The position numbers and the translations under genes are program-made. This document shows positions 20,101 through 64,000 of a stretch of DNA of 64,000 nt, one piece after another. The notes below the pieces were generated by a model. The model did not search any database. It was not told the DNA's origin and saw only the letters and a program-made list of their open reading frames with translations. The stretch is from Owenia fusiformis. Lineage: Eukaryota. The stretch lies in the NCBI GenBank assembly GCA_903813345.2, contig CAIIXF020000001.1, forward strand, positions 10,726,001 through 10,790,000, given 5' to 3'. The stretch's first letter is position 1. The number at the start of each line of letters is the position of its first letter.

Positions 20101-20850
20101 GTTCACGGGGTTCGGTGTCTGATGCATTCAATACTGGATTCGTCATCAATTCTGCCTCTTCAGCTCTGGAACAATGTGGTTGAATTGTTCGAGTAAATAG
20201 TTTTCTCTTTTCTAGAAGGATCTGGCTGGTTGATTCCTCTCATCAGTTCCACTGAGATGACGAGAGCTGCCATCTTTAAAAGCGTATATATTGTTCTACT
20301 TTACAATCGGAACCTATGATTTTACCTGATGACCCTTGATCTTGTTGAAAATTATTAATATGTGCCATCTTTGTGCTTTCAGGTTATAGACGACAACATG
20401 CGTGTGGAGTGTAAATGTCACGGCGTTTCGGGTACATGCGAGCTGAAAACCTGCTGGAGGGCAATGCCCACTTTTAGAACTGTGGGTGAAAAGCTGAAGG
20501 AGAAATTTGATGGCGCAACAGAGGTTGAACAAAGACGGATTGGAACACGAAGACAGCTTCTACCTAAAAATCCCCAGTTCAAACCTCATACAGGTTCCGA
20601 CCTGGTGTATTTAGTCCCATCTCCTGATTATTGTGAGATGGACCCACATACAGGGTCAATAGGGACAAGCGGACGGTTGTGCAGTAAAGCATCTAAAGCT
20701 ATAGACGGTTGTGACTTAATGTGTTGCGGAAGGGGGTTCACTACACGTGTTAAAACAGTGACTGAGAGATGCATGTGCAAGTTTCATTGGTGTTGTTATG
20801 TGAAATGTAAGGAATGCCAGAGAGAAGTAGAGGAACACACGTGTTTATGA
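5117..20850 (+). CDS. Wnt4: Wnt4, complete gene, 4 coding exons (5117-5199, 6436-6671, 9506-9780, 20383-20850), 353 aa
   Basis: The exons join in frame over GT-AG introns (phases 2,1,0). Signal peptide [21 protein letters not shown]. Wnt motifs: [54 protein letters not shown] (palmitoleoylated Ser), [43 protein letters not shown] and [13 protein letters not shown] are Wnt4-type. Confidence 0.95.
6436..6671 (+). CDS. Wnt4: Wnt4 exon 2
   Basis: TGTAG acceptor, reads ALGLSQ...[16 protein letters not shown]...NQ, GTAAGG donor. Confidence 0.95.
6920..7134 (+). repeat. Dispersed repeat; second copy at ~37646-37862
   Basis: About 215 bp (TCTGTATTGTCATAATTATGATGAATTCC...GTTGCCTACCCTTCTAGTTGAAAG) recurs in the same orientation in a NAGLU intron. 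Confidence 0.8.
7597..8472. mobile_element. Tc1/mariner-type MITE with long TIRs in Wnt4 intron 2
   Basis: TIR CACTCCCCTCCATAAGTTTGGCAACC...; about 230 bp arms, near-perfect; TA on both flanks; no ORF. Confidence 0.85.
9506..9780 (+). CDS. Wnt4: Wnt4 exon 3
   Basis: TTTCAG acceptor, reads [16 protein letters not shown]...[17 protein letters not shown] donor. Confidence 0.95.
10547..10733. mobile_element. Short MITE (CAGGCCCG...CGGGCCTG); related inverted copy at ~30390-30562
   Basis: About 15 bp imperfect TIR, flanked by direct repeat CATAG/CATAG, with a poly-G tract inside. A reverse-complement homologue lies in a NAGLU intron. Confidence 0.7.
12226..12435. repeat. Minisatellite, 43-bp unit, about 5 copies
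   Basis: GATGGTCGTTCGTGGCCACCAATTGGAACTTGCTGTGACACAC repeated in tandem with no spacers. Confidence 0.95.
20383..20850 (+). CDS. Wnt4: Wnt4 exon 4 (terminal)
   Basis: TTTCAG acceptor, reads [17 protein letters not shown]...EEHTCL then TGA. Confidence 0.97.
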
Positions 20851-38400: not shown

Positions 38401-41400
38401 GAATCTTGTGTTGGAGGGCCAGTTGTTGTTGGTGCCAGTTGTCAGAGAGGGGACCACCCCATCCTCGAATGTTACCCATCCTGGCCCTGAAGATTTAAAA
38501 CAGTAAATGCAGTCCCCTGAGTGTTATGTTAAAATAGAGAGTTATAAGCAAGTGGTATGTTTGTGGAGACGACTGTGTTTAATTCATCTTTTTAACTTAT
38601 TGCCTTTTGTCATGGGCGTAGCGCCTGTTACGCACAGAATGCCCGTGTGTACCAATTGTTTCAAGATTTTTCAAAAACTAGGCCTTTAAAAGCGTATTTA
38701 TTTATGATTGTTAATATTGTGTAAATAGGCAATTCTTCAGATAGCCAGATAATTTCTATATTTTGTAATCTTCAATTAATACAGTTTGTCCAAGCATATC
38801 CATCGATATCGTTTTGTTTTTCTGGTCCTTTAAAATCAATGTTTCAAGATAGATTCGACGCACTGTGCTTATTTCATGTCCACATGGACGATTTTGTAAT
38901 CAACAGAGAAAGTGTCTTAGATATATGGGCCAGAAGGAAGCCAAGGAGGCTTGCTTTAGCCTTGAACTGAGCTTTTGCCAGTTTACCATGGACATTACAT
39001 TTGACCTGAGACCCTTGGTGAAGACTGCAAATGAATTGGAAAAAATAAAATTTGCTAAAATGCATCAATTTATTTGCACATTTTCTGATAACTCCGTATT
39101 TTTAACGATTTTGTTTTGTCAGAATTGAATTATCTAAAGTTAAAAAAACACTCAGATTGTATCAAATAACGTCTCTGAAAAAAATTTGGCGGGGGAACAT
39201 GCCCCCGACCCCCAATATGCGCGGCCGTTGGCCACGCAGTCAGGCATCAGCGAGTGCGTACCAACTCAAAAAATAGCCCTACGCCCATGACAGTAAACAG
39301 ATATTTATGATATTCCATTTTAACAAATGATTCAAATGAAAACAAATATATGTACGAGGGGTGATCAGGAATTTCTGGACCGTTGGTTCTATTTTTGCCA
39401 TTTTCTATCCTTTCTTTGTGATTTGTTCACACAATATATATAGGATCACACCCTGAAGATTTCATTGTTCTATGACATCATTATCCTATTATTTTTGTTA
39501 CCATGGTAAGCGGTGATGCAACAAAGTGGAGCTCAGAAAAAATACCAAAGAAAAATCAACAGTAATTTTATATGATGTTTGGACACTGTATTCATTGCTG
39601 AATATTTGACTGTATTATAGGTTGTATTATTTCATTTAGTATTTTCATTAATGTTCATAGTAGCTGTCATTATTCTTCCATTAATTCTAATCCTTCAAAG
39701 AAGTTGCCAGCATTTTGTAAGCATTTGTTATGCCTTTTCACCTAGTCCCAAAAGATGTGATACAGGCCATCCTTGACTACTTTGTAACATGGTGTGTGAA
39801 TTCTCGAATGATCTCATTACTGTCCTCAAAGTTCACTGTTCCACAACTGGATGACTCTAACTGCAGTTAGCTTCATTCAAGATGGTGGACAAAATTCGTT
39901 CGTTTTCGATAAATCTCCAATTACAGCCAAACCAAGCTGAATCTTGATCCCAAAAGTTTCGCCATGCAAACTAATAAAGATATGATTGTAAACAACCACA
40001 AATAAAGGCTCACGCACCCGCGATATTAGAGAAATTGAAAGAAAACGGCTTCACTTAGAATGACTCTAACTGAAGTTAGTGATGACGTAGGAATGAAGCT
40101 AACTGAAACGGGGAATGAAGCTAACTCAATGGGATGAATATATGGACGGCCCTGTCTGTTGTTATAAGATATCTAAATGTTATTGACTGTTGTTATTGGT
40201 TGTAGCCATTTGTATTTTGACATGGAGTGAGTTTCTATTCAATCCCATGGCCGGTGATCGTAGAAATTGGACGGAGGGGGAGCAGACAAATTCTGGTAGA
40301 AATTTCAACAAATCTAGAAAATTTACTTTTTCAAGACAAAATTTAGTTTACGATTGAATGGCCAAATGAATAGGCTTACGGTATGGTAAAATATTGTAAG
40401 TATTCTAGGATTAAAGAATATGATGTAAAAGGCGAAATGCCGCAAACGTCCGAAAGTCAATGTTTTGCTAGTCAAGCAAGAATGGTCTACACGACCTGTA
40501 ATTAAAAAACGCCACCATGGAACATTGCAGTATTCTTATTTTAGGTTTACTGAAGACAGATACAGAGACCAGACTCCAACGGATAGGAACAACCAAACTA
40601 AAACCCCAACACAGAGAGATCACACAACACAACCGAACACAACCAAATAAACTCACCCGACTAGGCACAACCGACCACCTATCTTAACATAATCGGGCAC
40701 AACCCGCTACCACCCCTAATTTAACGATCAGGCACAACCAACCACATAACACAATCGGACTCAACCAGATACCTAACCTGACTGGGCACAACCTGCCCCC
40801 CGACCAGCATAACAAAATCACAACATAACACAACGCATTTTAAAATTAACATAACACAATAAGGCACAACTCGAAACCAGGCTAAATAAACAACCAGACA
40901 CAACCCAACTACAAGCCAACAACACAATACGACACAACCCAATACTACAACCTTAGTTTAACCTCCGAAAACACAACCAATTGTCAAATATACGCAACAC
41001 AATTTGGCACAACCAAATAATAAAACAACAAAACCAAAACACAACCCATAATGGACAAAGAACTACACAATTTTACACAAAACAATCAAAACACAATCAG
41101 GCACAACCGAACTGGAACACAAAAACACCCAACCAACACTCTCTGAAAACAACACCAATCACGCAACACAATCTGACACAACCACATACTTCATCCTACT
41201 GGGCACAACCCGCTACCGACCAGCACAACACAATTACAACATAACACAACCACTTTGAAATTAACATAACTTAATGAGACACAACCCGATACCAAACTTA
41301 CACAACACATCCAGGCTCAACCAGACAAACAACCACCAAAACACAATCGACTATCAAACTAACACAATGGAACACAACCAAACAACAAACCAACACAATA

Positions 41401-44400
41401 CAACATAGCCAACGAGACCGAATTCAAATCAACCCATTGTTGAATCATTACAACACAACCTGACACCAACCACAGTAACAGAGTCAGTCACAACCCAATA
41501 CTAAATCAATTAAATTACACTATTAAATACAATCAGGCACAATCTACAAACACAACCAAACTATGATACCAATTTACTTAGCACCCAACTAACTGTCTCC
41601 AACTGGAGACAATCCCAAAACAAAACCTAACCCAGCAAAACAACATTCTCTAGAAACCAATAACAATCCCGCGAAACGCGTAACCTGAACAGGAAAAAGT
41701 AGCCCTCACTATATTCTTAACCTTTTTTCTTTGGCCGCTGATGAGAAACATATCATGGAATACCCCCATGAGTTCGAAACATCTTGGGCCCTTATTATGA
41801 CCAACATATAAGGGAGAGGATCCGCAACAGGATCGAGATGTCCGGCCGCTCTACATTAATGACAATAGGAGATGTCACCACTAATGGCATCATCCTAGGA
41901 TCAACTAAATATACTCTACCTGTCACATAAGAACTGACAATGGTTTGGGGAAACTTAGATACTAGACCATATCTCCCAGGTCCAATCAACGAGACCTCTA
42001 ACCAATTACTCAGATGCGAGTAGTTAGTTACCAGTTTCGCCACCAGGTGGCTGAGTCGGGGGAAATAACATGGCAGGGTATTACAAAATTCCCTTAAACT
42101 TGAATATTCATCAGTTTTAGTGGTTCATTTTTCATACTACCCTTATGTATCTGATAGTTATACAAATTAAAATATGTCCAGTAAACTGGTAAAGGAAAAT
42201 ATTATCTGCTCAACACAAGAAAAGATATTTAACTTTTTGTGATTTTACAACATGGGCTCTATGGGGAATCCCCCCGACCTAGAATTCACATTTTCAAAGA
42301 AAACTAAATTTTCAAAGTTGATAAACTCTTTTCAAAACCACATTTCTAGATGTAATTCTAGGCTACATGTAGATTCCAAATATGACATCAGTTTGACTGA
42401 ATTTTGAATTTTTGATGACGTAAATCAAGATTATTTCTACTCGCATCTAGTCTATTGACACAGATTGCATGACCATGCGTGTCCATAAAAGGTAATGTCT
42501 CAAGACATGGTCTAAGCCACCACTCCCAACACTATACACCACACCAACTACTTAATATTTACACAGAACAATTAACCACCAGTACCATGGGAAGGCATCA
42601 TCTGTGGTCACGTGGTTACATAACAAGACAAAGCCCAGTGCGTATGGCAAAACACAGTCTCTCACAAATAATCTAATTAATTAAGGAAATGTGTTCGAAG
42701 TTTAAAAAAGGGATAATAAGAAGGTGAATTCTGTCATAAGCAATAATTTAGTAAACCGTATACACTTATATTATTTTGATAATGCACTGACTGAACAAAT
42801 AAAAATGAACATTGCCTTTAACTGCATGTCTTCAATATTCAGGTTGCTACATCATTGTATACAATATTGTTGCTTCACGATAAAAGAAACCCTTTTTATC
42901 CATCATTCGCTTACAATTTAGAATGATAATATTCTCCGGTGCTATTTGAATCGGGGGGGGGGGTGCTTTTTGATAGTTTTGTTTAGAAAATCGTGCGAAA
43001 AGTGCTCAGAGTGGTGAAAACCTGCGGGAATTAATTTCTGGCCAGGGAGGGGGAAACTACCGAACCTCCAGCTTCCCCTGGTTACGGAACTGCTTATTGG
43101 TAATTTGTATAGCCCATTATAAATCTCCATTCAGTTAGAGTCATCAATGGTGAAATCTGTGTTGGAGTTAGCTTCTTATCAACCTCAGTTAGAGTCATTC
43201 TAAGTGAAGCCGTTTTCTTTCAATTTCTCTAATATCGCGGGTGCTTGAGCCTTGATTTGTGGTTGTTTACAATTATATATTTTTTAGTTTGCATGGCGAA
43301 ACTTTTGGGATCAAGATTCAGCTTGGTTTGGCTGTAATTGGAGATTTATCGAAAACGAACGAATTTTGTCCACCATCTTGAATGAAGCTAACTGCAGTTA
43401 GAGTCATCCAGTTGTGGAACAGTGAAAGTTGATACCTCGTAATTTGTTTTTCACTGTGGGGAAAAGATAGAAATCATAGCCAGCTAAGTCTGGAGAATAC
43501 AGTGTGTGTGGTACACGGCCACAACCGATGAAATCAATCACATTTTGTAGGATAAGAGGGTCTGTATCACGTCTTTCAGAACTGGGTGAAAAGGCATAAC
43601 AAATACTTACAAAATAATGCTAACTACTTTGAAGGATTAGAATTGACGAATAATGACAGCTACTATGAACATTAATGAAAATACTTAATGAAATAATACA
43701 ACCTACTACAGTACATGTATGTCACATATTCAGCAATGAATACAGTGTCCAAACATCATATGAAATTACTGTTGATTTTTCAAACTCTAGTATTTTTCCT
43801 GAGCTCCACCTTGGTGCGTTACAGATTACCATGGTAACGAAAATAACAGGATAATGATGTCATAGAACAGTGAAATACTCATGGTGTGATCCTATATATT
43901 TGGGTTATATTGTGTGAAAAAATCACTAAGAAAGGATAAAAATGGCAAAAATAGAGCCAACGGTCCAGAAATTCCTGATCACCCCTCGTACAAATAGAAA
44001 ACTAATATATTTACCAAGCAAAAAATGCAGGACCACCAAAATGTTCATCAACCTCTGCTCTTGTTAGGCCTAACTTCATATAAACCTACATTGAAATCAA
44101 CACTAAAATACTCTACATTATCAAAATCATTTAAAGTTTTTAATTTATGTTTAGAAGCATCTTTGGTTCTCTCTATTTGCAGCTGTTAAATGGGTGAATA
44201 TGGTCGAGAGAAGTTATACATCTTTTAATAGGAAGACAGTGGTTTATTTTGCATGTAGCATGCTTATAAGGAAAAGTTGATACTTCATGCATTAGTGAGT
44301 GCTTTACATGACATTGAATATTTGTTAAAATTAGTTTGTGATGTTGTGTTTTTCATGTTTATAAAACCAAAGCTAAGCATTTTTAATTTACCACTATCAG

Positions 44401-50953: not shown

Positions 50954-50975
50954 AAATGGTTTATGTTGGAGGCTC

Positions 50976-52409
50976 TTGTATCAATCATATAACAAGTATA
51001 AATGTAAGGTTTTTGTAGATGGTATTTTATCGGATACTTTTCCTGTTAATAGAGGTGTTCACCAGGGCGGGATATGTTCTATGTTTCTCTACCAGTTCTT
51101 TATAGCAGACCTTTTGCAACAACTGGTAGATTCGGCAAAAGGAGTAAGAATTGGTGAAACGTCTGTAGCATGTCCAGCATACGCTGATGATATTGCCTTA
51201 ATTGCAAACAATCCAGAAAATCTAAATGCTCTGTTGAGCATTGCTGACATGTATAGTAAAAGGTGGAGGTTTGAGTTTCATCCAGGAAAATGTGTAGTGC
51301 TTAAGTTTGGTACAAACAAAAATGCTTTTTGTGAATGCAAATTAGGAGAGAATATTCTAAAAGTAGAAAAATCTGCTATACATGTTGGCATACCTTTAGG
51401 CAAAAGCTCAGAGCATGTATCAAATTTGATTTCACGCAGTAAAAGAAAATTCTTTTCTCTGCTTGGTTTAGGAGCAAATGTAGGTAGCTTAAATCCTCTG
51501 CTAGCTTCCAAGTTATACTGGAGTTTTTGCTTCCCAACAATGACGTATGGCAGCTCTGTAACGCAATATTCAATAACCGAAATTGAGTCTATGGAGGATG
51601 CACATAGATCCATTGGCAAGAGAATACAAAGCTTCCTGGTAAATACCCCTGACCCGATGGCGATAAAACCACTCGGATGGCTTTCAGTTCAAGCGCGAAT
51701 CGATGTAGATCGCCTTATGTTCATCTGGTTCGTCTTATCGTTACCGGTACAATGTATTTATAAAATTGTATGCATTTATCGACTGTTGAGTATAATCCAC
51801 ATTGGAACCTATCGCTCAAGTAAATCTCCATTGGTCTCAATGTGGGAAACAACAATGAAATACGACCTACATGGGGACGTTTTGAATATGATAACTACTG
51901 CTAAGACACCACTCAAATGTGTCTGGAAGAGAAAAGTCATGAACGTTGTCCAGTCGTTTGAGATGAGACGCTTTTTCGTTCTTAGCTCCTTATATCCAAC
52001 ACTGAGACCAATTTTGAGATGTTTCACTGTTTTAAAACCATTTTTATGGTGGGAAGTTGCCAGGCGTTTTCCAAGACGCTTACCACAATGTAAAGTTATA
52101 ATGAAAATGATATCAGGAACATACAGGATATTTAATTACGGACAACCAATGTCTGAACGAGTATGCTTACTATGCAATTTAAATGTCACTGAAGACGTAC
52201 AGCATTTTTTACTATTGTGCCCAGCGTATATAGATATAAGATACAATCTATTTAGTGAATTATATAAACTAGGAGTCAACAACTTTTGTGAATTCATATG
52301 TTTCATTTTCGGTGGAGGGAGCGAATATGATCCTGAAATAATGCTTCCATTGCTGGACACGATATATGAAATGCACAAAAGAAGGGATTACCTTCTTAAA
52401 TCCTTGTAA
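50976..52409 (+). pseudogene. LINE reverse transcriptase ORF fragment (477 codons, uninterrupted)
   Basis: RT motifs QGG and YADD and a CCHC-type C-terminal motif; the endonuclease and N-terminal RT subdomains are missing. Confidence 0.9.
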
Positions 52410-53388
52410 ATAATAGCATTCTCTGACATATGAGCATATTAATTTTGCTCATCTAACATACATATAACTTGTAGTATTTTTCGTATATTTATTTTTGTAA
52501 CATATTTATGTATATGTACTCATCTTGTAGATGGTAAATAAAATAACATAACATAACATAACATAATACTGTCCTAATTGACTTATTTAGTCTCAGTGAC
52601 ATCCTTAACATCCTTATTTGTGGAAAACAACAGGATGATTTGAAAAGGTGTGAATACACGAGTTAATTGGTTTATCATATTAGAAAAGAACTGAATGTTT
52701 TATGTTTGGATTAAGAGAAAGGTGTGAATCAAGAAGATAAATGATTTATCATTATTGGAAATTACCTGGATGTTTTTGATTTGGATTAAGAGAAAGGTGA
52801 GAATCTGGGAGATAATTGGTTTATCCTTATTGTAAATTAACTGGATGTTTTTGATTTGGATTATGAACAGGTCTTAGATGTTTTATATCCCATGGGTCTG
52901 TTATGATAGCCAAGATTCAATCAGTAAATGTTTTATAATCATAAAGACAACACAGACACAATTGCAGACAAGATTTCACGAGAAAGAGAAAAAATTCAGC
53001 TTCGTATTATCCTATCACTAAAATGCCTCCTAAAAAGGGAGGATTATACATCGTCTCGAATGAACACTCATGAAAAATTCTTTTTACTTGAAAAGGATAT
53101 CTACTCAAATATTGTTAATGCTAAAAGTGCCAAAAAACAAACAACAATGAAGGACTTTTTCAAGCAAACGTAAAGCAGTGCTATATAACCATAATATGGG
53201 ATAAGTCATTTGAGAAGCATAAGATTTCGTAGGAGACTATCATATACTTATACTGTCAGTGTATTACAAATTTTTTGCCAAAATATAAGTTATTTTTACT
53301 AAAATAATGAAATTGTTCAAAATGTAAATAAAAATAGCATATAGGCTATAGGCCTATTGTAGAATAAACAGCATGTATTGTTTTCTTA

Positions 53389-54964: not shown

Positions 54965-55667
54965 TGGTCTTTTAGAACCTCTCTGGTGCAGTCTGAACAT
55001 ATCTCAGCACAACATCCCCAATAATAAAAACAAGAAAATTGTGCTTTTATGAAAATAGCTTGACTTTGACTAAAAAACGTTGACTAAAATTTTACTAAAA
55101 TATACATTTCACACTTATTCTTCAAAGAATATTTCCGAAATAAAATATAGTTTATTTATGTGTCGCAAGCAATAAATAATACATTTGAATGTTTTTTAAT
55201 AAAATTAAAAACATTGCTTGATGTAGACTAGATAATGACATAGTATCATTTCTGTCATTATTACATTTTGGCTTTACTTAGCTCTCAAGAGCTTTCAATT
55301 TTAGGATCGGTTTTAAATCTAAAAAATTCTGGGAAAAGGGGGGGGGGGTCGCCCCAACGGCCTTCCCAGGCCCTTTTGACGGCCCGAGGTTGCGCCTGAG
55401 AAATCCAAGCCATATGCACCAATGCCACCACAGATGGCAGAGTTTTTCTTAGGAAATTCATCCTAAATAAATAGTAAATGGAGTATTTCTTTATGTATTT
55501 CCTAAGCAAAATTCTGTCATCTTTGTGAATGCCACATTCAGTGTATCCTATTTCTTGAAAATTGAAGAGTGCTAAAATTGCGAACACAACACAAAATTAC
55601 TAACGTTTGCTTTTTAACGGAACAAGTTCGAAGTCTGTGGGGTCAAAGTTCACAAAGAAAAGAAAAC

Positions 55668-55711
55668 ATGCCAGGTGAAGAAAGATTGTCTACTAAAAAC
55701 CCTCTTGCAAG
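55668..55711 (+). CDS. Thioesterase-like gene, probable shared exon 1 (MPGEERLSTKNPLAR)
   Basis: AAACATG start context, AAG|GTACGT donor; phase 2 matches the next exon. Confidence 0.55.
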
Positions 55712-56082
55712 GTACGTAAGACTTGATTTATAAATGTACGTTGTGTTGGCGTTAAAATGATACGTGCTTTTTTTACTACATGCCATTGATTTAAGCAAGT
55801 TCAGCGTTGTAGATATGAATATTGAAAATATTTGGCTGCAAAGTTCAACAAAAATTTTGATATTTTCTTCAAATCAAAAGTTCACGTTAATTTCATCAAA
55901 TATTCTCTTATGTAATGAGACATAGTCAAAGTTAGTTTTATAACTTTGACGGTCTTTATGTATTATGATCCAGTGTCAGCCTAGAATGATAAATGCATGG
56001 GAGGCCATCGTGTGTAAGTCACCCCTCCCTATTATCCCGTGCCAGGACTATAGTCCTGAACCGAGCGCAATCTTTTGCCTTT

Positions 56083-56496
56083 ACGATTACAACTTGGGAG
56101 AATTATCTACGCCCCTTACACTTAAGATACCTATCTTAATGTATTATAGAACTCAAAATATAACTTCTAATATATTGGAACCGCCGATTGTCTGGGTATA
56201 TCGGCAGAACGGGAACATTTTTCTTTTTCATCGAGATTCCATCACTTTTCAAGATGGCTGTTGGATTTAAAAGGGGATTCCCAGAAGTGGCTAGGAAGTA
56301 CCAATAAATGGAGGAATTTGACGGTTGAAATAAGTTAAATATTACACGCAAACATTGCGATCAAAAATGAAATTTCTTCGTTCTGCCGATAAACCCAGAC
56401 AACTACACGAAATGCATGCTAAAATACCAAGGAATCTATTGAAGTAGGTATCTTAAGTTTAAGGGGCATGGATAATTCTCCCAAGTTGTAATCTTA
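56083..56496. mobile_element. MITE with about 57-bp inverted arms in thioesterase intron 1
   Basis: GATTACAACTTGGGAGAATTATC...CTTAAGATACCTA versus TAGGTATCTTAAG...GATAATTCTCCCAAGTTGTAATC. Confidence 0.65.
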
Positions 56497-56750
56497 CAGG
56501 CCTATAGACCTATATTAGCCTATGCAAAAAATATTAGAGGGGGGGGGGGGGGGTGGGTGGTGCAAATATTTGCAAATATCTGCATGCTTAAGCTCCACTT
56601 AATGTCCTGTACTTGGCAATATTCAAAGTCATTCTTTAAGAAAATATATTTACATATCAGATATATACAAAAGGTTTGTATCAAGGAGAAATGAACATAC
56701 CAGTATGATGCATAAAAGAAAGATTATTAGGAAAAATTGTATGCTTTTAG

Positions 56751-56842
56751 GAGGTTCAACTTGCAAGTGAAAATGAATCCTGAGAAAACCAGGGCAGAAG
56801 TCATTCTACCAGGTCTTTCCTACGATGACTTTGACAGAACAG
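56751..56842 (+). CDS. Thioesterase-like gene, shared exon 2 (RFNLQVKMNPEKTRAEVILPGLSYDDFDRTG)
   Basis: CTTTTAG acceptor, CAG|GTAATG donor (phase 1). Encodes the first-hotdog Y-D-x-D-x-x-G motif that all three downstream ORFs lack. Confidence 0.75.
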
Positions 56843-57852
56843 GTAATGGCACAAGGAATTTTAAGAAAAACATTTTCAACATTTTATGAAAAATGATCCT
56901 AATATTCACACATAGCTAGGCAAGGTGTGTCAGATTCCAGACAATCCAAACAGAGTATTCACATAATGAACAATGTGTGAAATATCAACAACACATGCAA
57001 GGTCACTAGTTAAACAGTTGTCATGGGGATGGATGGATTTTTCACATTGGATTTGATGACTTACCAACTTGACTCTTGCAAAAAATTTAATTAAAATGTG
57101 TTCTTATTTTGGGCTTAAATCCTTAAATATTTTGAAAAATCACATTTAGCTGGACATGCACTTTCTGACCAATGAGAACAATGTTTAACCATGTGTAATA
57201 TGAAATGATAGTCAGTGTGTATGGCTTTTTTTTGCTTTACAATATATGTGGGTGTGACAACTAACATTTTATTTTACAAAAAGCTCAACATTTGAAATTA
57301 AGTTGAAAAGTTTCGCAGAGCTCATTTTGATTTGGCCTTGGGTGTATTAGAGAAGTATATTGCAATGCAGTTATATGAAAAAGCATGTTCTGATTGGCTG
57401 AAGTTTGACACACCTTGCCTAGGTACATGCAAATAGGTTATTTCTGATCAGACATAAGGGATAGTATTCAGATGGTGACAGTTGTGGAAAACAAAGGTAA
57501 GATAATAATTAACCCCTCCCACTCCCTTTTGATATTGATTTGCCTTTCACTTCATTTTTTCAAAATTCAAAATTTCCAAAAATCATAATTTACCACTTCC
57601 CTTTAAAATGATTGACCCTGCTACTTGACCAATGTTGATATCTGGACAGCATTCCTAACTGAGGGGTTTCACTAGAATTTCTCACAACAGGCTAAATAAA
57701 TAAAAACAACACGCAAAATTAATGGAAATCATAAATTTAACATGGAAAAGTTCCTAAAAACAACAGGCGATTTTGTGAAAACAACCAATGAAAATCGCCT
57801 GTTGCCAGCTGCTAATGAAACCCCTGCTAACTGTGCATAAATTGGCTTCCAG

Positions 57853-58601
57853 GTAATGTGAGTATATGGAAGATCTCAAAGCTGTTTGAAAGTGCAAGGC
57901 TCCTCGTCTCATTGTCTGGCAATTACCTTGACTTTCATAAATTGATGGCAAATGATGGAACAATGTTTATCCGGTCTGGACATTACATAATATCTGATGT
58001 ATTATACCAATCAGCAGCTATCAACTGGCCCCTCAAGGCTACGACCAGTCTATCGTTCATTGGACGCACATCCACTAACCTCACAATTGAAATACGGGAA
58101 CAGTTGACCAATCAACATGTCGGAAGTCTCGAGTTCCAGTATGTTTATGTGAATCGCACAAATCGTAAATCGCAAGCTTTTCCTGATTGGTTCATCCAGA
58201 AGTACAGGCCACTTACAACTCTGGAAACAAGGCCTGATACGATGGCACCGTTATCACTACCAAGCAAAACATTTTCTTATGATGTCACTGTTCAATATAG
58301 CGACACTGACCGAAATGGGCATACAAACCAATCATCTTACTTAAAATATGGAATGGACGCAGCAACGAGTGCCTCCTTAGGGGGTGAATTCCATAACTTC
58401 AAACAAGACATGTGTATGTACCATGTCCAAGACTTCCAAGCTCTATATACAGGGGAAAGTCTGGTTAAAGATCAACTTGTTATACATACATGGGAAGATG
58501 GAACAAGAAAAGATTTACTGTTCTTTCAAATTCACAAAAATAACCGAGCAATATTTCACTGTAGGCTTACTCTTTGTAATCCAGCTTCAGCAAAGTTATA
58601 A
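57853..58601 (+). CDS. Double-hotdog acyl-ACP/acyl-CoA thioesterase-like, terminal exon 3A (ends -AKL, PTS1)
   Basis: CTTCCAG acceptor, phase 1. Motifs YVYVNRTNRKSQAFPDWF, VQYSDTDRNGHTNQSSY, YTGES. AATAAA at 58687 and 58795. Confidence 0.85.
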
Positions 58602-59885
58602 TTTGAATGACCAACTTCAAAAGTCATTGAGATGTGACTATTTCGTAAATTTATAAGAACATTCCAACAATTTCTATTTATAATTAAATAAATCAGAGGA
58701 CAGGCAGTCTGAACACTGTAACTTATTTGTGGAAATGCATTTCTTGCATTATTGCAAGCCAAACAAGTCGAACAAACATACAGTTTGGACCATAAATAAA
58801 TGAGTAGTCGATTTTCTTTCACAATTTAATTTCCAAACCATGGTCATTTTAAAGCCCATAGTTTCCAATATTGTCTAAATACATATCCCCTAAAATTTAT
58901 ATATTTTACAATTTGTATACTCTCATTCACTGATGTATGGCTTCTATTTTTAACATGAGAAATCTACAGCAAATCCATGACTCATTTATTCATGCTCCAG
59001 ACTGTATATGTAATATTGCAATTGAGGAATCAAAATGTGGGTCTTTCAAAGGAGATTTGAATGGGCAAGTAGTGCTGACTGTAATTTGTTTAATGTTGAG
59101 GATTTAACAGTTAGAAGAATCTAGTTACATTACATACAGGAATTAAATTGTTATTTTGTTCGTGAAAATATAGTTTTTAACTGAAGTTCAAGTTGATGGC
59201 TTATCACCATTTTCTAATTCTGATAATATGGGGAGAAGGGAACTTTGTTTTTACTATTGTCAACACTTGAACATCATCCCTTACAGGTCCATACTAGCAC
59301 ATAAAGTTAGATCTAATCACATTGCTGGTCCAATCTTCATACAGCAAACTATACTTTATAAACTACACATGGGTGTCAGAAAATATAACTTGAATTGGTC
59401 AATATACAATGTACCGATATATTGCCATTGCCACTAGACCCACATTTTGATTTATTTGACATTGTTGAGATAAGTAGCTCAGAATAATTTATCTTTCTTG
59501 TCTAAGTTATCAGTAATTTTGACATAGCCTACACAACATATATAGAATATATACAGAGTTTTTCAAACTGTACAATGTTTTCTGAAACAAAGTCCATGTG
59601 TTCAACTTTTCACACCTTTGCATGTTTTACTGTCTGTCACTTTGAACAAAACTTAAAATACATTCCACATGTTATAGTAATTAATAATGTACATTGTATA
59701 CATTATTTGTAAATATTAATGGAGTCATATTCCATATGTGCCAAAGCATTTGTTGTTTTAATAAATTCAGTCAAGTACTAGTTGATAAAATTATGTTAAT
59801 TTTACATGCGGATAATTACATGCACATACTAATGCTATCTAGAAGCATCAATAATCAGAATGATTTTGCAGGATGTAATTACCTA

Positions 59886-60245
59886 GAATGATGTGCAGGA
59901 TATATCACTCAGAATGATTGTGCAGGATGTATCATTTAGAATAATTGTGCAGACTGTATCATTAAGAATGATTGTGCAACATGTATCACTTAGAATGATT
60001 GTTCATCATGTATCACTTAGAATGATTGTGCAACATGTATCACTTAGATTTGTGCAGTATTTATCTCTTGGAATGATTGTACAGTTTGCTTCACTCAGAA
60101 TAATCGTGCAGCATAAATCACTCAAAATGATTATACAGCATCTTTCAGAATGATTGTGTAACAGGCATCACCCAGAAAGATTGTGCAGCATGTATGGTTT
60201 ACAATAATTGTGCTGCATGCAACACTCAAACTGATTATGCAGCAA
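59886..60245. repeat. Minisatellite, about 27-bp unit, about 13 degenerate copies
   Basis: AGAATGATTGTGCAACATGTATCACTT repeated in tandem; accounts for the spurious ORF 59893-60153. Confidence 0.9.
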
Positions 60246-60419
60246 GTACGATAGATTACTTCAAAAAATAGTTTGTAATTTTAGGATGAAAATTATCTGT
60301 TTTTATACAGCACCTTTAACATTGAACAGGTTTTTCTATACTTTCAACTGGTAAATCATGTGTTTACATTACATATATACCATTACAGTAACATCAGTTA
60401 ACAACTTGTCTTCTTCCAG

Positions 60420-61171
60420 GAAATGTTAGTCTAACTAAGCTACTAGCAAGAATTTCTTCAACTCAAATGCTGTTTGAGCTTGGCAATGAGCACAGTGATT
60501 TCTGGATGCTAATCAACTCATCGCCAGCTCTGTTTTTTGTGAGGTCGATGAAATACAGGATAAACGAGGAATTGTATTCCATGAAAAAACATGGTCCAGA
60601 TCATACATTTGTGTGTATATGGCAAGCTATATCCACTGGCATTTCCTCCAGATATCTTCGATATGACCTCACTTTAAATGGAAAGGAAATGGTTACTCTA
60701 TTCGGCCAGGATGTTTATGTTTCTAAGGAAACCAAACGCCCCACCCGATTGCCCGAGTGGTATAGAAACAAGGTGAAAACAGCAAATGGAACTGCGAAAA
60801 GGAATATGGCCCAGTTGATTAGGCCCATTCAAGCTTTCCAGTACAACATGGTTGTGACTCCTTCAGATATTGATATGTATAATCACGTAACAAATTCAGC
60901 ATATATTAGGTATTGTCTTGATGCTGGCTATCAAGCAGGAATATCAGGATTTTATAGAAATCTCCCCGGAGATATTGCCCAATACCGCTGCAAGGAGATT
61001 GAACAACTTTATGATGGGGAGAGTAACCTTGGGGAGGAACTATGTGTTTATACATGGGACACTGAAGAAGAAAAGGATACATTGTATTTCCAAATAGCCA
61101 ATGAGAAAGGACGTCCAATTCATCATTGCATTTTAAGATTTTATCAAGGAAGAGCTTCAAGTAAACTCTGA
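60420..61171 (+). CDS. Double-hotdog thioesterase-like, terminal exon 3B (ends -SKL, PTS1)
   Basis: TTCTTCCAG acceptor, phase 1, reads GNVSLTKLL.... Motifs VYVSKETKRPTRLPEW, VTPSDIDMYNHVTNSAY, YDGES. Confidence 0.85.
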
Positions 61172-61261
61172 AACAAACTAGGTCAGTTTCACTCCCTTTT
61201 CAAAGTATGTATGTGAAAGATGCAGAGTACCAAGATTAACTTTTTATGACTGATCAAAGTA

Positions 61262-62272
61262 CAGGGTGGTCCAAAAAAAGTGAACCCCTGCAACAAGCTA
61301 TATTTTTCTTAATACATGCATGAAAACACATTTCATATTATCACATGTTGAAGAGAAAGGTCTAAAATTTGGTTGATGCCATAATCTATTCTCAGTCTTA
61401 AATTTTGAAGAAATTACAAAAGTGTAACAAACATGCCTGAAAATTAGATATTGTACAAAATTTTACAAATGTGATTCTTGGAAATTTTTGAAACACATTG
61501 GATGATCTTAAACAGCTTTCAGTTAGAGATACAAGTTTAAAACCCTACCATTTGACAAAAGGGACACTATTTAAGCAGAAAACACATTTCACACTTTCAT
61601 TGATCATTTTGAAGCAGTTTTAACTGTTTAACAGTTCAGGGGTATGTTACCGACACCAACAGTTAGAGGGGGGGGGGGGGGCTCTTATCTTATGGAAGGA
61701 ATTTGCCCCCTGTGACCAGGAATCTGATAATCCCTTCATCAAATATCTTTAAAAAATCAAAAGAAAATCCAATTTCTAATGTTTTGAGCCATACTTAATT
61801 AGAATTGGTCCATGATTTATGAAGATATTGACATTTCAAGATCATATAGGGGTATGCTCGCGATTTCACAGGAAAATGTTTTCATCTGTGGAAGCTTGGC
61901 ACATTTCTTTGGATCACAATAACTTTGCAACAAACAAAGGTAGGATGCTAGTTTTAAGCCATAATGTGCAGGATTTAAAATTGAACAAAGTCAGAAAATA
62001 TTAGTTCTTTAAGACTGCAGCTTAAAAAATTCTCATGGGAAAGGTGTTGAAGGGTTGAAGAATCGCGGATATTGAAAATCACATTTTATCCATTTTCAGT
62101 AATATTTGGTTAGGGCTTATAATTTCTGCAAATTTTAAGACTAAGAAAAATGTATGGAACCAACATAAATTTTAGACCTTCCTCTACAACATAGGAAAAT
62201 AAAAAAGAATTCCTGCAAGTAATCAGGGAAATATGGCCCGTTGCAGGGGTTCACTTTTTTTGGACCACCCTG
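61262..62272. mobile_element. Tc1/mariner-type MITE
   Basis: TA|CAGGGTGGTCCAAAAAAAGTGAACCCCTGCAAC...GTTGCAGGGGTTCACTTTTTTTGGACCACCCTG|TA; the same terminus also occurs near 34702-34721. Confidence 0.85.
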
Positions 62273-62958
62273 TATACAACATAATCCCTCTAGTTAGTTC
62301 ACAGTTACAATGAGTGATCATGTGACTTTTATGATGAATATGGTCCCAAGAAAACATGAAGTTAAATGCATTCGTTTTGATTATCTCCACAACAAAATGA
62401 CGATTGATGATTGTATTTAGTGCAGAGGAAGAAATACTGAGCTGTAGAGTATGTAAAACTTAGTGAACAGCAAAAAAGATTATCTGCAGTATTTTTTCTA
62501 GATTTTTTGGATATGTGCTAATTGGAATCTCCTAATAGCTTTCCCTTTTAGAGAGAATATGGTATTCAAAATATATACCAATAACATTTTTTATTAATTA
62601 CTTTTGTACATTCTTAACTTGATGTCTTTCATGAAAACTCTCTATTCCATGATCAGATTGTTTGTGCAGGTCAGTGGTCTTTGACATATTTCTATACACA
62701 TATTTTAATGAATGCTTAAGCCTTGGTCACATTTACTCTATAGTGGGCATGGAGTGGCAGCTTCACAAAATTGATATTGAAAACCCACATTATACTGCTT
62801 ATCCCTATATTTTATGCTGCATATTTTCTCAATTTTTGGAAGCTATGGTTGCCATACCATATGGTTGCTGTAGATCAGATGTTACTGAGACATTGGTTGA
62901 TTTATGTTAACTTGATAATTATTTTTAAATTATTTTGTTAATTTCTCATGTTCTTCAG

Positions 62959-63728
62959 GTGGACTGAACATCTTCAACATAGCGAAAAAATTCAGCAATG
63001 CACGTTCTTCGAGTTTTTACTCTGACATATCATCTTTGTTGACACTTACCTCAAGGGGAACTCATGTCACGTTTGAGCGGGCATCTAATTACAGAATCAG
63101 CGAAAAGTTCTTTGAATTGCATAATCCACAATTTAGTGGTGAACTTGGTGGATATCTTAGCTTTGAAAAAATCAAAGATCGTCAAATATATGTGGAAGAC
63201 AAGCTGGTGTCAGTGGGAAACTCTTCAATATGTCTCGCCTCATCGATAATACACAATGGGGAGGCGATTGCCACTTTTGAGAGTCAGGTAGTGCACGTTG
63301 ATTGGAATTCACGCAAAGCTGTCCCACTTCCTGTTTGGTTCACTGAAAAATATCGGGAATTCATGAAAATTTCAAAGATAAAATTTACAACAAATATGAA
63401 CAAACCAAACAGCTCTTATTCATACAGTATCAAAGTGTCCGCAAGTGATTTGGACATGAATAATCATGTGAACATGGCTATTTACCTCCGGTATTGCTTA
63501 GATGCAGGGTATATGGCATGTAAAGATGGCGCTTATGAGGGTTTTGAGGGAGATCTTTTGACATATAAAGTGCAGAAATCGTCATGTCTGTTCTTTGGTG
63601 AAAGTGTACTTGAGGCATTGCTGTCTGTGTATACATGGGAAGATAGTACACAGAAAAATTTAATACATTTCCAAATTGAAAATAGTGATGAGAAATTAGT
63701 ATATTTCTGTTCTATGTGGTTTCATTAA
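62959..63728 (+). CDS. Double-hotdog thioesterase-like, terminal exon 3C (no PTS1)
   Basis: GTTCTTCAG acceptor, phase 1, reads GGLNIFNIAKKFSNAR.... Motifs VHVDWNSRKAVPLPVWF, VSASDLDMNNHVNMAIY (close to FatA/B DLDMNQHVNN), FFGES. AATAAA at 63867. Confidence 0.85.
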
Positions 63729-64000
63729 TTAGAACATACAAGGTGGGCCCAAAATGCAATCCAAATTAGCAATAGTGTACAATCAGAATGGGTAACATTT
63801 TTTCCCACCCTGTGTAACCATAAGTTTTAAATTCCTCTAAAGCATTTCTTGTTTAGAATATTTTTGAATAAAAAGAAAAGTCCAACAATTCTCAAAAAGT
63901 TGTGTCCTGAGGGAAATATGGATATCTTACTGAGGGCCCAGAGGGTCCTAGGTAAGATAACATATTTTCCGAGGGATATACTATCCTATAATTCAAAACA

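What the first reader, a model, noticed from the sequence alone, without database searches (positions are those of the whole stretch)
55668..63728. One thioesterase locus, three enzymes: shared 5' exons plus an array of divergent ~750-nt terminal exons
Seen: the three thioesterase ORFs do not look like independent genes. Each starts right after a pyrimidine-rich CAG acceptor in the same phase 1 (57853, 60420, 62959) and lacks the start of the first hotdog motif. I find only one exon supplying that motif (56751-56842, ...GLSYDDFDRTG), and no copy of it between the ORFs. Splicing gives ...DFDRT-GNVSIWK (294 aa), -GNVSLTK (295 aa) and -GGLNIFN (301 aa). The exons are highly divergent yet all open, which suggests old, selected duplicates. 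Established: UGT1A and clustered protocadherins use variable FIRST exons on a constant 3' part, whereas Drosophila mod(mdg4) and lola use variable last exons. Inference: this is a constant-head/variable-body enzyme cassette in which about 85% of the protein, including the catalytic motif and substrate pocket, is swapped by last-exon choice. It may continue past the window end.
Basis: partly seen in the sequence, partly recalled or inferred. Interest (0 to 1): 0.88.

Follow-up and report, generated by a model that had tools for sequence, protein, structure and literature searches.

The report
One thioesterase head, three alternative bodies
An annelid gene for a fat-cleaving enzyme seems to make three different enzymes by joining one short shared start to any of three very different large exons, a rare but already known way of diversifying an enzyme.

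Summary
Three open frames of 256, 259 and 269 codons lie on the + strand (A 57853-58601, B 60420-61171, C 62959-63728). They are about 30% identical to each other and are acyl-ACP-thioesterase-like double hotdogs. Each begins at a CAG acceptor in phase 1 and lacks the family's conserved N-terminal strand and motif (PGLSYDDFDRTG). In the whole 64-kb window only exon 2 (56751-56842) encodes that motif, by two profile scans; about 63% of family heads would be caught.

RNA reads confirm the exon 1>2 splice. A deposited protein equals head+B exactly and skips A.

No read junction from exon 2 into A, B or C reached the listing threshold, at depths of 0.3-5. Sharing of the head by A and C is therefore inferred, not shown. 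A and B end in -AKL and -SKL (peroxisomal signal); C does not.

Verdict: probably real (about 0.68). It is a new member of a known kind, like mosquito GSTD1.

The parts
55668..55711 (+). Exon 1, coding part (ATG at 55668, 44 nt, donor CAAG|gtacgt)
   Evidence: Sequence. A GT..AG joint 55711>56751 was seen in RNA reads, 1/4/1 reads in X14/X15/X16. These are the first 15 residues of deposited protein P0003.
56077..56501 (.). Inverted-repeat (MITE-like) element inside intron 1
   Evidence: Arms of 69 nt, 86% complementary. Read depth is very high on both strands with many loose ends, so this is repeated DNA.
56751..56842 (+). Exon 2: the only head exon. It encodes ...AEVILPGLSYDDFDRT-G and has a phase-1 donor ACAG|gtaatg
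   Evidence: It is the only hit of two head profiles in the 64-kb window (35.3 and 26.6 bits against noise of 6.3 and 7.1). In the AF2 model of P0003 it forms strand 29-35 and the motif loop of hotdog 1, at pLDDT about 90.
56903..57435 (.). Second inverted-repeat element, in the intron between exon 2 and A
   Evidence: Arms of 50 nt, 78% complementary.
57853..58601 (+). Body exon A (249 codons, ends -AKL then TAA). Its 3'UTR runs on to about 59.2-59.8 kb
   Evidence: ORF. Pfam 4HBT_2 scores 27.5 bits against a cut-off of 25.5. A profile of the family's first 31 body residues hits 57852-57944 at 37.9 bits, E 2.7e-10, so coding starts at the acceptor and not at the annotated internal Met. Stranded RNA depth is 0.24-3.65 over the body (about 2-3.7 in X14 and X15, 0.24-0.3 in X16) and continues to 59815. 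Poly(A) signals lie at 58683, 58687, 58795, 59142 and 59760.
59857..60248 (.). 27-nt tandem repeat, 14.8 copies, in the A-B gap
   Evidence: TRF score 313. RNA depth is zero across 59816-60417 in all 3 RNA runs.
60420..61181 (+). Body exon B (762 nt; coding to TGA at 61169-61171, ends -SKL). Donor CTAG|gtcagt lies 10 nt after the stop
   Evidence: ORF. Head+B equals deposited protein P0003. A GT..AG joint 61181>62959 was seen in 2/4/0 reads. There is no AATAAA or ATTAAA between 61172 and 62198.
61260..62274 (.). About 1-kb element with terminal inverted repeats. It fills most of the B-C intron
   Evidence: Arms of 65 nt, 86% complementary, with nested arms. Read depth on both strands is repeat-like.
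62959..63728 (+). Body exon C (256 codons, ends -MWFH then TAA, no PTS1). Poly(A) signal at 63867
   Evidence: ORF. Pfam 4HBT_2 scores 35.9 bits and Acyl-ACP_TE_C 24.9 bits. Stranded RNA depth is 1.2-4.8. Its sister in the tree is a headless unit from a second locus of the same species (99% local support).

Best explanation
This is one transcription unit of an annelid; a tool named the deposited protein as Owenia fusiformis. It encodes three acyl-ACP-thioesterase-like double-hotdog enzymes. All three share a 45-residue head from exon 1 and exon 2 and differ in a body of about 250 residues.

The head supplies the first beta-strand and the YDDFDRTG loop of hotdog 1. Each body supplies the rest of hotdog 1 and all of hotdog 2, including the D-x-D-x-N-x-H ... 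E catalytic motif.

Proposed isoforms:
- 1-2-A: 294 aa, ends -AKL. A is a true last exon with its own poly(A) signals.
- 1-2-B-C: 295 aa, ends -SKL. B is a cassette exon whose stop lies 10 nt before its donor, and C then serves only as 3'UTR.
- 1-2-C: 301 aa, with no peroxisomal signal.

The choice of acceptor therefore swaps about 85% of the enzyme and, by inference, its location: A and B peroxisomal, C not.

Shown here: the three frames, the single head in the window, the 1>2 and B>C splices, + strand RNA over A, B and C, and a deposited protein equal to head+B.

Inferred: the 2>A and 2>C splices, peroxisomal import, and acyl-CoA (not acyl-ACP) as substrate with differing specificities.
For: Frames, phases and product lengths are confirmed.

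All three bodies are under protein-level selection. Each frame is 250 or more codons open, with P about 4e-9 each. The catalytic columns are kept: D197 and H201 are invariant and E246 nearly so in 30 family members. These columns align to the DMDMNGHINN motif of a solved plant-type acyl-ACP thioesterase.

The family's mature proteins carry head plus body. 63 of 133 aligned homologues have 16 or more residues in the head columns. They include proteins read from unnamed contigs of 900-1347 nt, a length that suggests, but does not prove, mRNA.

The window holds a single head.

A's first 31 residues, upstream of the Met used by the public 218-aa model, match the family profile at E 2.7e-10, starting exactly at the acceptor codon.

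Deposited protein P0003 equals exon 1 + exon 2 + B and skips A. I take it, by inference, to come from the species' genome paper. That paper's methods section describes a pipeline built on RNA-seq junctions and reports 99.29% of transcripts as RNA-supported.

Stranded RNA reads show the 55711>56751 and 61181>62959 joints, coverage of A, B and C, and zero depth across 59816-60417.

B lacks a poly(A) signal, whereas A and C have them.

The AF2 model of head+B (pLDDT 88.5, pTM 0.87) integrates the head as a strand of hotdog 1. It matches acyl-ACP thioesterases 2ess, 4gak, 5x04 and FatA at E about 1e-16 with TM up to 0.83.

A second pair of neighbouring deposited proteins on the same chromosome repeats the pattern. 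CAH1774403 has a head and CAH1774405 is headless and C-like. The exon-2 parts of the two heads are 62% identical, against 25-37% for the bodies.
Against: No joint from 56842 to 57853, 60420 or 62959 was listed in any of the 3 RNA runs. The threshold was 3 reads, only 6-12% of each run was read, and depth was 0.3-5.

The only joint seen into C's acceptor comes from B's donor. A transcript with that joint cannot encode C: the frame reads SSKL*NKLGGLN.

In run X14, C's depth (3.5-4.8) exceeds my estimate of about 2 for exon 2, scaled from a bin mean of 0.39. It also far exceeds B's depth of about 0.35.

The head scan would miss about 37% of family heads. The first 31 residues of B and C are themselves too divergent for the family profile, so a very divergent private head for C cannot be excluded.

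In the limpet Patella, two tandem paralogues each have their own, slightly different head. Whole-gene duplication is thus the norm elsewhere.

The public annotation treats A as a separate 218-aa gene.
Confidence: 0.68

Rival explanations
1. The public annotation is essentially right. Only B uses the head, as a 1-2-B-C transcript. A is a separate nested gene translated from its internal Met (218 aa). C is merely 3'UTR or a decaying relic.
For: The deposited proteins are exactly these: P0003 is head+B and P0001 is A from its Met. C is absent from the deposited set and appears only as a genome-derived call. The only joint into C comes from B's donor, after B's stop. No 2>A or 2>C joint is listed.
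Against: A's 31 residues upstream of that Met match the family profile at E 2.7e-10 from the acceptor codon onward. In the model they form the central hotdog helix. A protein starting at the Met would lack that helix and strand 1.

C has been open for 256 codons at 30% identity to its neighbours (P about 4e-9). It keeps the catalytic D, H and E columns. It has a sister unit at another locus, diverged to 37% identity yet also open. A UTR or relic would not stay open.

C's depth is about 10 times B's in X14. Most C RNA therefore does not pass through B.
Confidence: 0.12
2. These are three independent tandem genes. B and/or C have private promoters and private first exons, too divergent or too small to be recognised, in the gaps or overlapping A's 3'UTR.
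For: Whole-gene tandem copies with their own heads exist in Patella (83% identical, heads differ at 3 of the first 17 residues) and in this species (CAH1773632/3). Head-scan sensitivity is only 39 of 62. C's depth exceeds the head's in one run.
Against: There is no + strand profile hit at all in either gap. The B-C gap is 1777 nt and is removed as one intron in the reads; 1015 nt of it is one inverted-repeat element. The 600 nt upstream of B have zero RNA depth in all 3 runs, and 392 nt of that stretch is a 27-nt tandem repeat. The deposited head+B protein already shows the head reaching over A.
Confidence: 0.1
3. This is a mod(mdg4)-like mechanism. The bodies are transcribed from their own promoters as headless pre-mRNAs and joined to the head transcript by trans-splicing.
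For: In mod(mdg4) all isoforms arise by trans-splicing of common 5' exons to 3' exons that have independent promoters (abstracts seen). It would explain C RNA exceeding head RNA in X14.
Against: All parts lie on one strand, in order, within 8 kb, so cis-splicing suffices. B>C is joined in cis order. No reads mark a start upstream of B.
Confidence: 0.04
4. B and C are also made as one four-hotdog fusion. This would happen by read-through of B's TGA, since the frame continues SSKL*NKLGGLN, or by use of the in-frame upstream donor CAA|gtaaac at 61160.
For: Exon B to its donor is 762 nt (0 mod 3), so the B>C joint keeps C in frame. An amphioxus model of 571 aa strings three headless units together.
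Against: The observed joint uses 61181 and not 61160. I recall no known read-through motif that fits the stop's context, TGA followed by A; this was not tested. The amphioxus protein is an old automatic model and may be an artefact. C in such a fusion would still lack its head.
Confidence: 0.04

Closest known systems
Anopheles gambiae GSTD1 (aggst1-alpha), delta-class glutathione S-transferase
   Same: It is an enzyme gene whose isoforms share a short 5' coding exon and take one of several alternative large 3' exons that encode most of the protein. [quoted passage not shown]
   Different: The enzyme fold and the phylum differ. The exon details (shared N-terminal exon, four 3' exons) are recalled from Ranson et al. 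1998 PNAS; I saw only its title, in a reference list, and the paper is not held. Here one body (B) is an internal stop-carrying exon spliced on to the next body, and the bodies differ in a C-terminal targeting signal.
Drosophila mod(mdg4) and lola
   Same: [quoted passage not shown]
   Different: Those are BTB transcription/chromatin factors whose variable part is a C-terminal zinc-finger tail. In mod(mdg4) the joining is by trans-splicing from independent promoters. Here the variable part is about 85% of an enzyme, and cis-splicing is the simpler reading.
UGT1A and clustered protocadherins (recalled, no call)
   Same: One locus gives many proteins by combining a variable exon with constant exons.
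   Different: The polarity is the mirror image: variable first exons with their own promoters on a constant 3' part.
Plant and bacterial acyl-ACP thioesterases (FatA/FatB; PDB 2ess, 4gak, 5x04, 9mqf)
   Same: The fold is the same double hotdog (Foldseek E about 1e-16, TM up to 0.83). The profile matches at E 1e-11 to 1e-7. The D-x-D-x-N-x-H motif lies in the second hotdog.
   Different: Sequence identity is 10-17%. These are animal proteins, and many end in a PTS1-like tripeptide. No acyl-ACP is known in animal peroxisomes (established knowledge), so the substrate is more likely acyl-CoA. None of the solved relatives is known to me to be built from alternative exons.
Whole-gene tandem paralogues of the same family (Patella caerulea SNE40_008968/9; CAH1773632/3 of this species)
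   Same: Same family, in tandem arrangement.
   Different: Each of those copies has its own head, and the two Patella heads differ from each other. The window's three bodies have a single head between them.

Membership tests
Acyl-ACP thioesterase-like double hotdog (Pfam Acyl-ACP_TE / Acyl-ACP_TE_C, 4HBT_2 clan) | Two tandem hotdog domains in one chain | tested here: met
   The AF2 model of head+B (pLDDT 88.5, pTM 0.87) shows two strand-helix-sheet units. The top Foldseek PDB matches are all acyl-ACP thioesterases, at E 2.8e-16 to 1e-13.
Acyl-ACP thioesterase-like double hotdog (Pfam Acyl-ACP_TE / Acyl-ACP_TE_C, 4HBT_2 clan) | Pfam model above its gathering score | tested here: met
   Acyl-ACP_TE_C: B 26.2 and C 24.9 against a cut-off of 21; A 19.2, which is below. 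4HBT_2: A 27.5 and C 35.9 against 25.5; B 24.3, which is below. Of 30 family members, 26 match 4HBT_2 and 18 match Acyl-ACP_TE_C. The N-terminal Acyl-ACP_TE model stays below its cut-off in all three.
Acyl-ACP thioesterase-like double hotdog (Pfam Acyl-ACP_TE / Acyl-ACP_TE_C, 4HBT_2 clan) | Catalytic Asp/Asn/His (and Glu) motif in the C-terminal hotdog | tested here: met
   The motif reads SDTDRNGHTNQ in A, SDIDMYNHVTN in B and SDLDMNNHVNM in C. D197 and H201 are invariant and E246 nearly so in 30 sequences. The motif aligns to DMDMNGHINN of 9mqf. Which residues are catalytic is recalled from the FatB literature, not tested.
Acyl-ACP thioesterase-like double hotdog (Pfam Acyl-ACP_TE / Acyl-ACP_TE_C, 4HBT_2 clan) | Hydrolyses acyl-ACP | not testable with these tools
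   This needs an enzyme assay. The PTS1-like ends argue for acyl-CoA instead (inference).
Shared-5'-exon / alternative-3'-exon locus (GSTD1-, lola-like) | Only one copy of the 5' coding exons for several homologous 3' bodies | tested here: met
   Two profile scans of all six frames of the 64-kb window give one hit, at exon 2. Sensitivity is 39 of 62 in leave-one-out.
Shared-5'-exon / alternative-3'-exon locus (GSTD1-, lola-like) | All bodies start at acceptors of the same phase at the homologous codon | tested here: met
   Phase 1 at 57853, 60420 and 62959; the products are 294, 295 and 301 aa without a stop.
Shared-5'-exon / alternative-3'-exon locus (GSTD1-, lola-like) | Transcripts joining the shared donor to two or more acceptors | tested here: inconclusive
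   No such joint was listed in 3 RNA runs at depth 0.3-5. Head>B is implied only by the deposited protein. Head>A and head>C are unobserved.
Shared-5'-exon / alternative-3'-exon locus (GSTD1-, lola-like) | Each body is a last exon with its own stop and poly(A) site | tested here: not met
   All three have stops. A and C have AATAAA signals. B has none and is spliced on to C.
PTS1-targeted peroxisomal protein | C-terminal (S/A/C)-(K/R/H)-(L/M) tripeptide (consensus recalled) | tested here: met
   A ends -AKL and B ends -SKL, while C ends -WFH, which does not fit. The family consensus ends -SKL. Import itself was not tested.

The most novel reading that the evidence does not exclude
A 'one head, many bodies' design is an old and conserved feature of this invertebrate thioesterase family and not a local accident. 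It would be present at two or more loci of this annelid: the second is CAH1774403 with a head plus the headless C-like CAH1774405. It may also be present in amphioxus, where a model strings three headless units together.

The shared head would be held at 62% identity while the bodies drift to 25-37%. Acceptor choice would decide both substrate specificity and peroxisomal versus cytosolic location. A chained B>C splice would allow one body exon to serve as the coding exon of one isoform and the 3'UTR of another.
Probability: 0.25. Interest if true: 0.6.

Novelty: new member of a known kind. Interest (0 to 1): 0.42.

Why it matters
If the three isoforms are real, this is a compact natural example of swapping almost a whole catalytic body on a fixed N-terminal strand. 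It also couples enzyme diversification to organelle targeting, because two bodies carry a PTS1-like end and the third does not.

It shows that public gene models at this locus are incomplete. A is truncated to 218 aa and C is not in the deposited set. Headless family members in other invertebrate annotations may hide the same design.

It also points to an uncharacterised family of animal acyl-ACP-thioesterase-like enzymes. Tools named members from an annelid, three molluscs, a nemertean, a hemichordate and amphioxus. My two literature searches found no paper on them.

Tried and rejected
- **RNA holders:** no RNA holder listed. The 13 holder rows are unrecorded or guessed.
- **Run X1:** it behaves like DNA, since its contigs cross exon borders unspliced. 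It says nothing on splicing.
- **Word-index search with A:** found only the window's own 218-aa model.
- **Search for short protein fragments carrying the head (P0003 residues 1-60, 'shorter'):** I hoped for transcript-derived head+A or head+C pieces; it found nothing.
- **Whole genome:** none is held. I therefore could not look past base 64000 for further bodies or read the second locus.
- **phmmer of P0003 against PDB sequences:** nothing below E 0.42. The profile and the fold search were needed instead.
- **tblastn of the head peptide:** no second copy. This is a weak test at 30% identity. In that script my exon-1 end was 2 nt off, so the joined translations printed there are wrong; one search corrects them.
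- **Docking/selector test:** I looked for RNA pairing between the intron after exon 2 and the regions upstream of each acceptor. RNAduplex gave loose structures with z of -2.3 for A, -2.8 for B and +0.5 for C against mononucleotide shuffles. I treat this as inconclusive and make no claim.
- **Tree of 135 family rows (FastTree):** only C plus CAH1774405 is supported. A and B have no supported partner, so the order of duplications is open.
- **Earlier findings of this scan:** nothing by place, sequence or words.
- **Papers:** Ranson 1998 is not held. One search returned no paper. Searches for animal acyl-ACP thioesterases gave no relevant title among the 10 listed each.
- **Supplements of the genome paper:** not opened. 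Its expression tables might bear on A and B.

Full report
**What is in the sequence**

On the + strand there are three long stop-to-stop frames: 57831-58601, 60392-61171 and 62919-63728 (256, 259 and 269 codons). The DNA is about 34% G+C. Stops are expected every 13-14 codons, so a 250-codon open frame has a chance of about 4e-9.

The three frames are homologous but very far apart. tblastn gives 27-31% identity. The alignment gives 33% and 32% identity with 43 invariant columns.

Pfam places them in the 4HBT_2 / Acyl-ACP_TE_C thioesterase group, each with at least one model above its gathering score.

None has an in-frame ATG ahead of its conserved part. Each conserved part begins directly behind a pyrimidine tract and CAG, at 57853, 60420 and 62959.

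Upstream lie a 44-nt coding exon with an ATG (55668-55711, donor CAAG|gtacgt) and a 92-nt exon (56751-56842, donor ACAG|gtaatg, phase 1).

**Do the bodies need a head, and is there only one?**

A profile of the three bodies found 985 relatives at E<=0.001, 83 of them at E<=1e-30. Many are 280-295 residues long and carry, before the point that matches the exon junction, a conserved stretch such as PGLSYDDFDRTG. 63 of 133 aligned family members have 16 or more residues in those columns. Some of these proteins were read from unnamed contigs of only 900-1347 nt, a length that suggests, but does not prove, mRNA.

In an AlphaFold model of head+B (30-sequence alignment, pLDDT 88.5, pTM 0.87), the head forms strand 29-35 and the motif loop of the first hotdog. 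It lies just before the central helix, which the body supplies.

I built a 22-residue head profile from 28 homologues, leaving the window's own head out, and ran it against all 4649 six-frame fragments of the window. It hits exon 2 at 35.3 bits (E 1.4e-9) and nothing else above 6.3 bits. A wider profile of 62 heads gives 26.6 bits there and a noise ceiling of 7.1 bits. It gives no + strand hit at all in 58602-60419 or 61172-62958.

The limit of this test must be stated. In leave-one-out only 39 of 62 heads clear the noise by 3 bits. A profile of the first 31 body residues finds A (37.9 bits, E 2.7e-10, starting exactly at codon 57852) but not B or C. A very divergent private head could therefore escape.

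**What fills the gaps**

- Most of the B-C gap is one element of about 1 kb with inverted ends (61260-62274).
- Two more such elements sit in the introns after exon 1 and exon 2.
- The A-B gap holds a 27-nt tandem repeat, 59857-60248.

**RNA**

Three stranded RNA runs labelled with the same species were laid on 55000-64000. Only 6-12% of each run was read, so depth is low. Depths below are first-mate-on-minus reads for X14/X15/X16; depth on the other orientation is about 0.

| Region | Depth (X14/X15/X16) |
|---|---|
| A body, two bins | 1.99, 1.68 / 2.98, 3.65 / 0.30, 0.24 |
| B body, two bins | 0.42, 0.29 / 0.84, 0.54 / 0, 0.73 |
| C body | 3.5-4.8 / 1.4-2.8 / 1.2-2.1 |

Coverage runs on past A's stop to about 59.2-59.8 kb. 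It is zero across 59816-60417 in all three runs.

Two clean GT..AG joints are listed:
- 55711>56751 (1/4/1 reads), which confirms the exon 1-exon 2 splice.
- 61181>62959 (2/4/0 reads).

The second joint was not foreseen. Its donor CTAG|gtcagt lies 10 nt behind B's TGA, and its acceptor is C's.

No joint from 56842 into A, B or C reached the listing threshold of 3 reads. At these depths, and with a 92-nt exon whose reads would be divided among acceptors, that is uninformative.

**B is not a last exon**

AATAAA or ATTAAA signals follow A at 58683, 58687, 58795, 59142 and 59760, and follow C at 63867. There is none between B's stop and 62198, which lies inside the inverted-repeat element.

Together with the B>C joint, this makes B a cassette exon that carries its own stop, with C then serving as 3'UTR. 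Exon B is 762 nt long, so C stays in frame behind the stop: SSKL*NKLGGLN. I rate a read-through fusion as unlikely.

**Public models**

One tool named three deposited or genome-derived proteins from this place, on a 62.2-Mb contig:
- P0003, 295 aa, 'unnamed protein product [Owenia fusiformis]', CAH1772957.1.
- P0001, 218 aa, which is A from an internal Met.
- P0002, which is C from its first codon, found only as a genome-derived call.

P0003 equals exon 1 + exon 2 + B letter for letter. The head therefore reaches over A in the deposited annotation.

I read the methods section of the species' genome paper (PMC9977687, section 18). It describes STAR, StringTie, Trinity and Mikado evidence, Augustus with intron hints, and PASA, with 99.29% of transcripts supported by RNA-seq. 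That these deposited proteins come from that annotation is my inference.

C's absence from the deposited set fits a 1-2-B-C model in which C is UTR. The 218-aa model for A is too short, because the 31 residues before its Met match the family from the acceptor onward.

**Family**

The model of head+B matches acyl-ACP thioesterases best: 2ess, 4gak, FatB 5x04 and FatA, at E about 1e-16, TM up to 0.83 and 10-17% identity. The family profile reaches the same entries by sequence, at E 1e-11 to 1e-7. The bodies' SD-x-D-x-N-x-H motif lies on DMDMNGHINN. D197 and H201 are invariant and E246 nearly so in 30 members. All of these residues lie in the variable body.

Named relatives come from Patella, Lottia, Biomphalaria, Tubulanus, Saccoglossus and Branchiostoma.

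A ends -AKL and B ends -SKL, and the family consensus ends -SKL. C ends -MWFH. By the recalled PTS1 rule, A and B would be peroxisomal and C would not. In a peroxisome the substrate is more likely acyl-CoA than acyl-ACP (inference).

**Is the design local or older?**

In Patella two adjacent genes are 83% identical, and each has its own, slightly different head. This species also has a tandem pair with their own heads, CAH1773632/3. Whole-gene duplication is thus common in the family.

A second pair on the same chromosome repeats the window's pattern. CAH1774403 has a head. CAH1774405, two accessions on, is a headless model beginning MLPG-GLNI, which looks like a translated acceptor tract. That unit is C's sister in a tree of 135 rows, with 99% local support by FastTree.

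The exon-2 parts of the two heads are 62% identical, against 25-37% for the bodies. I could not read that locus, because no genome is held.

**Comparison with known systems**

The closest precedent is an enzyme: Anopheles GSTD1. [quoted passage not shown] That the variants share a 5' exon and differ in the 3' exon is recalled from Ranson et al. 1998. I saw only its title, and the paper is not held.

mod(mdg4) also combines common 5' exons with variable 3' exons, but by trans-splicing from separate promoters (abstracts).

The present case differs in three ways: the enzyme family and phylum, the B>C chaining, and the coupling to a targeting signal. My searches found no paper on animal members of this thioesterase family among the titles listed.

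**Verdict**

A single head serving several bodies is the best reading (about 0.68), but only head>B (through a deposited model) and B>C (through reads) have evidence beyond sequence logic.
- It is a new member of a known kind. It is of moderate interest, and it shows that the public models at this locus are incomplete.

Noticed in passing
window 9469-9891 and 20359-20850 (+): Two open frames look like exons of a Wnt ligand gene. One reads CGCDR...[14 protein letters not shown]. The other reads [17 protein letters not shown] ... CCGRGF ... [14 protein letters not shown]. The names are from recall of the Wnt cysteine pattern and were not searched.
   Followed up: no
window 50955-52409 (+): A 484-codon open frame has a reverse-transcriptase-like stretch (…YADDIALIA…). 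It is probably a non-LTR retrotransposon fragment about 3 kb upstream of exon 1. It was not scanned against Pfam.
   Followed up: no
window 40001-42000: There is a strong strand asymmetry of composition (GC skew -0.29, AT skew +0.34), unlike any other 2-kb bin of the window. TRF at score 80 or more found no tandem array there.
   Followed up: partly
window 61260-62274, 63743-63815, 56077-56501, 56903-57435, 57662-57830: Several inverted-repeat (MITE-like) elements crowd the introns and the flank of C. The ends of 61260-62274 (…GGTGGTCCAAAAAAAGTG…) resemble the short element directly behind C's stop (GGTGGGCCCAAAATG…TTTTTTCCCACCCTG). RNA reads from many other copies pile up on them on both strands.
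   Followed up: partly
proteins P0037 / P0005 (CAH1774403.1 / CAH1774405.1), same 62.2-Mb contig, outside the window: A second locus of the same family seems to repeat the head-plus-headless layout. The headless model starts MLPG-GLNI, which looks like a translated acceptor tract. The locus could not be read.
   Followed up: partly
protein P0004 (Branchiostoma floridae, 571 aa): An amphioxus model strings three headless units of this family together. It is either an artefact of a headless tandem array or a real multi-unit protein.
   Followed up: no
window 52644-52863: A 75-nt tandem repeat, 2.9 copies, 83% matches.
   Followed up: no
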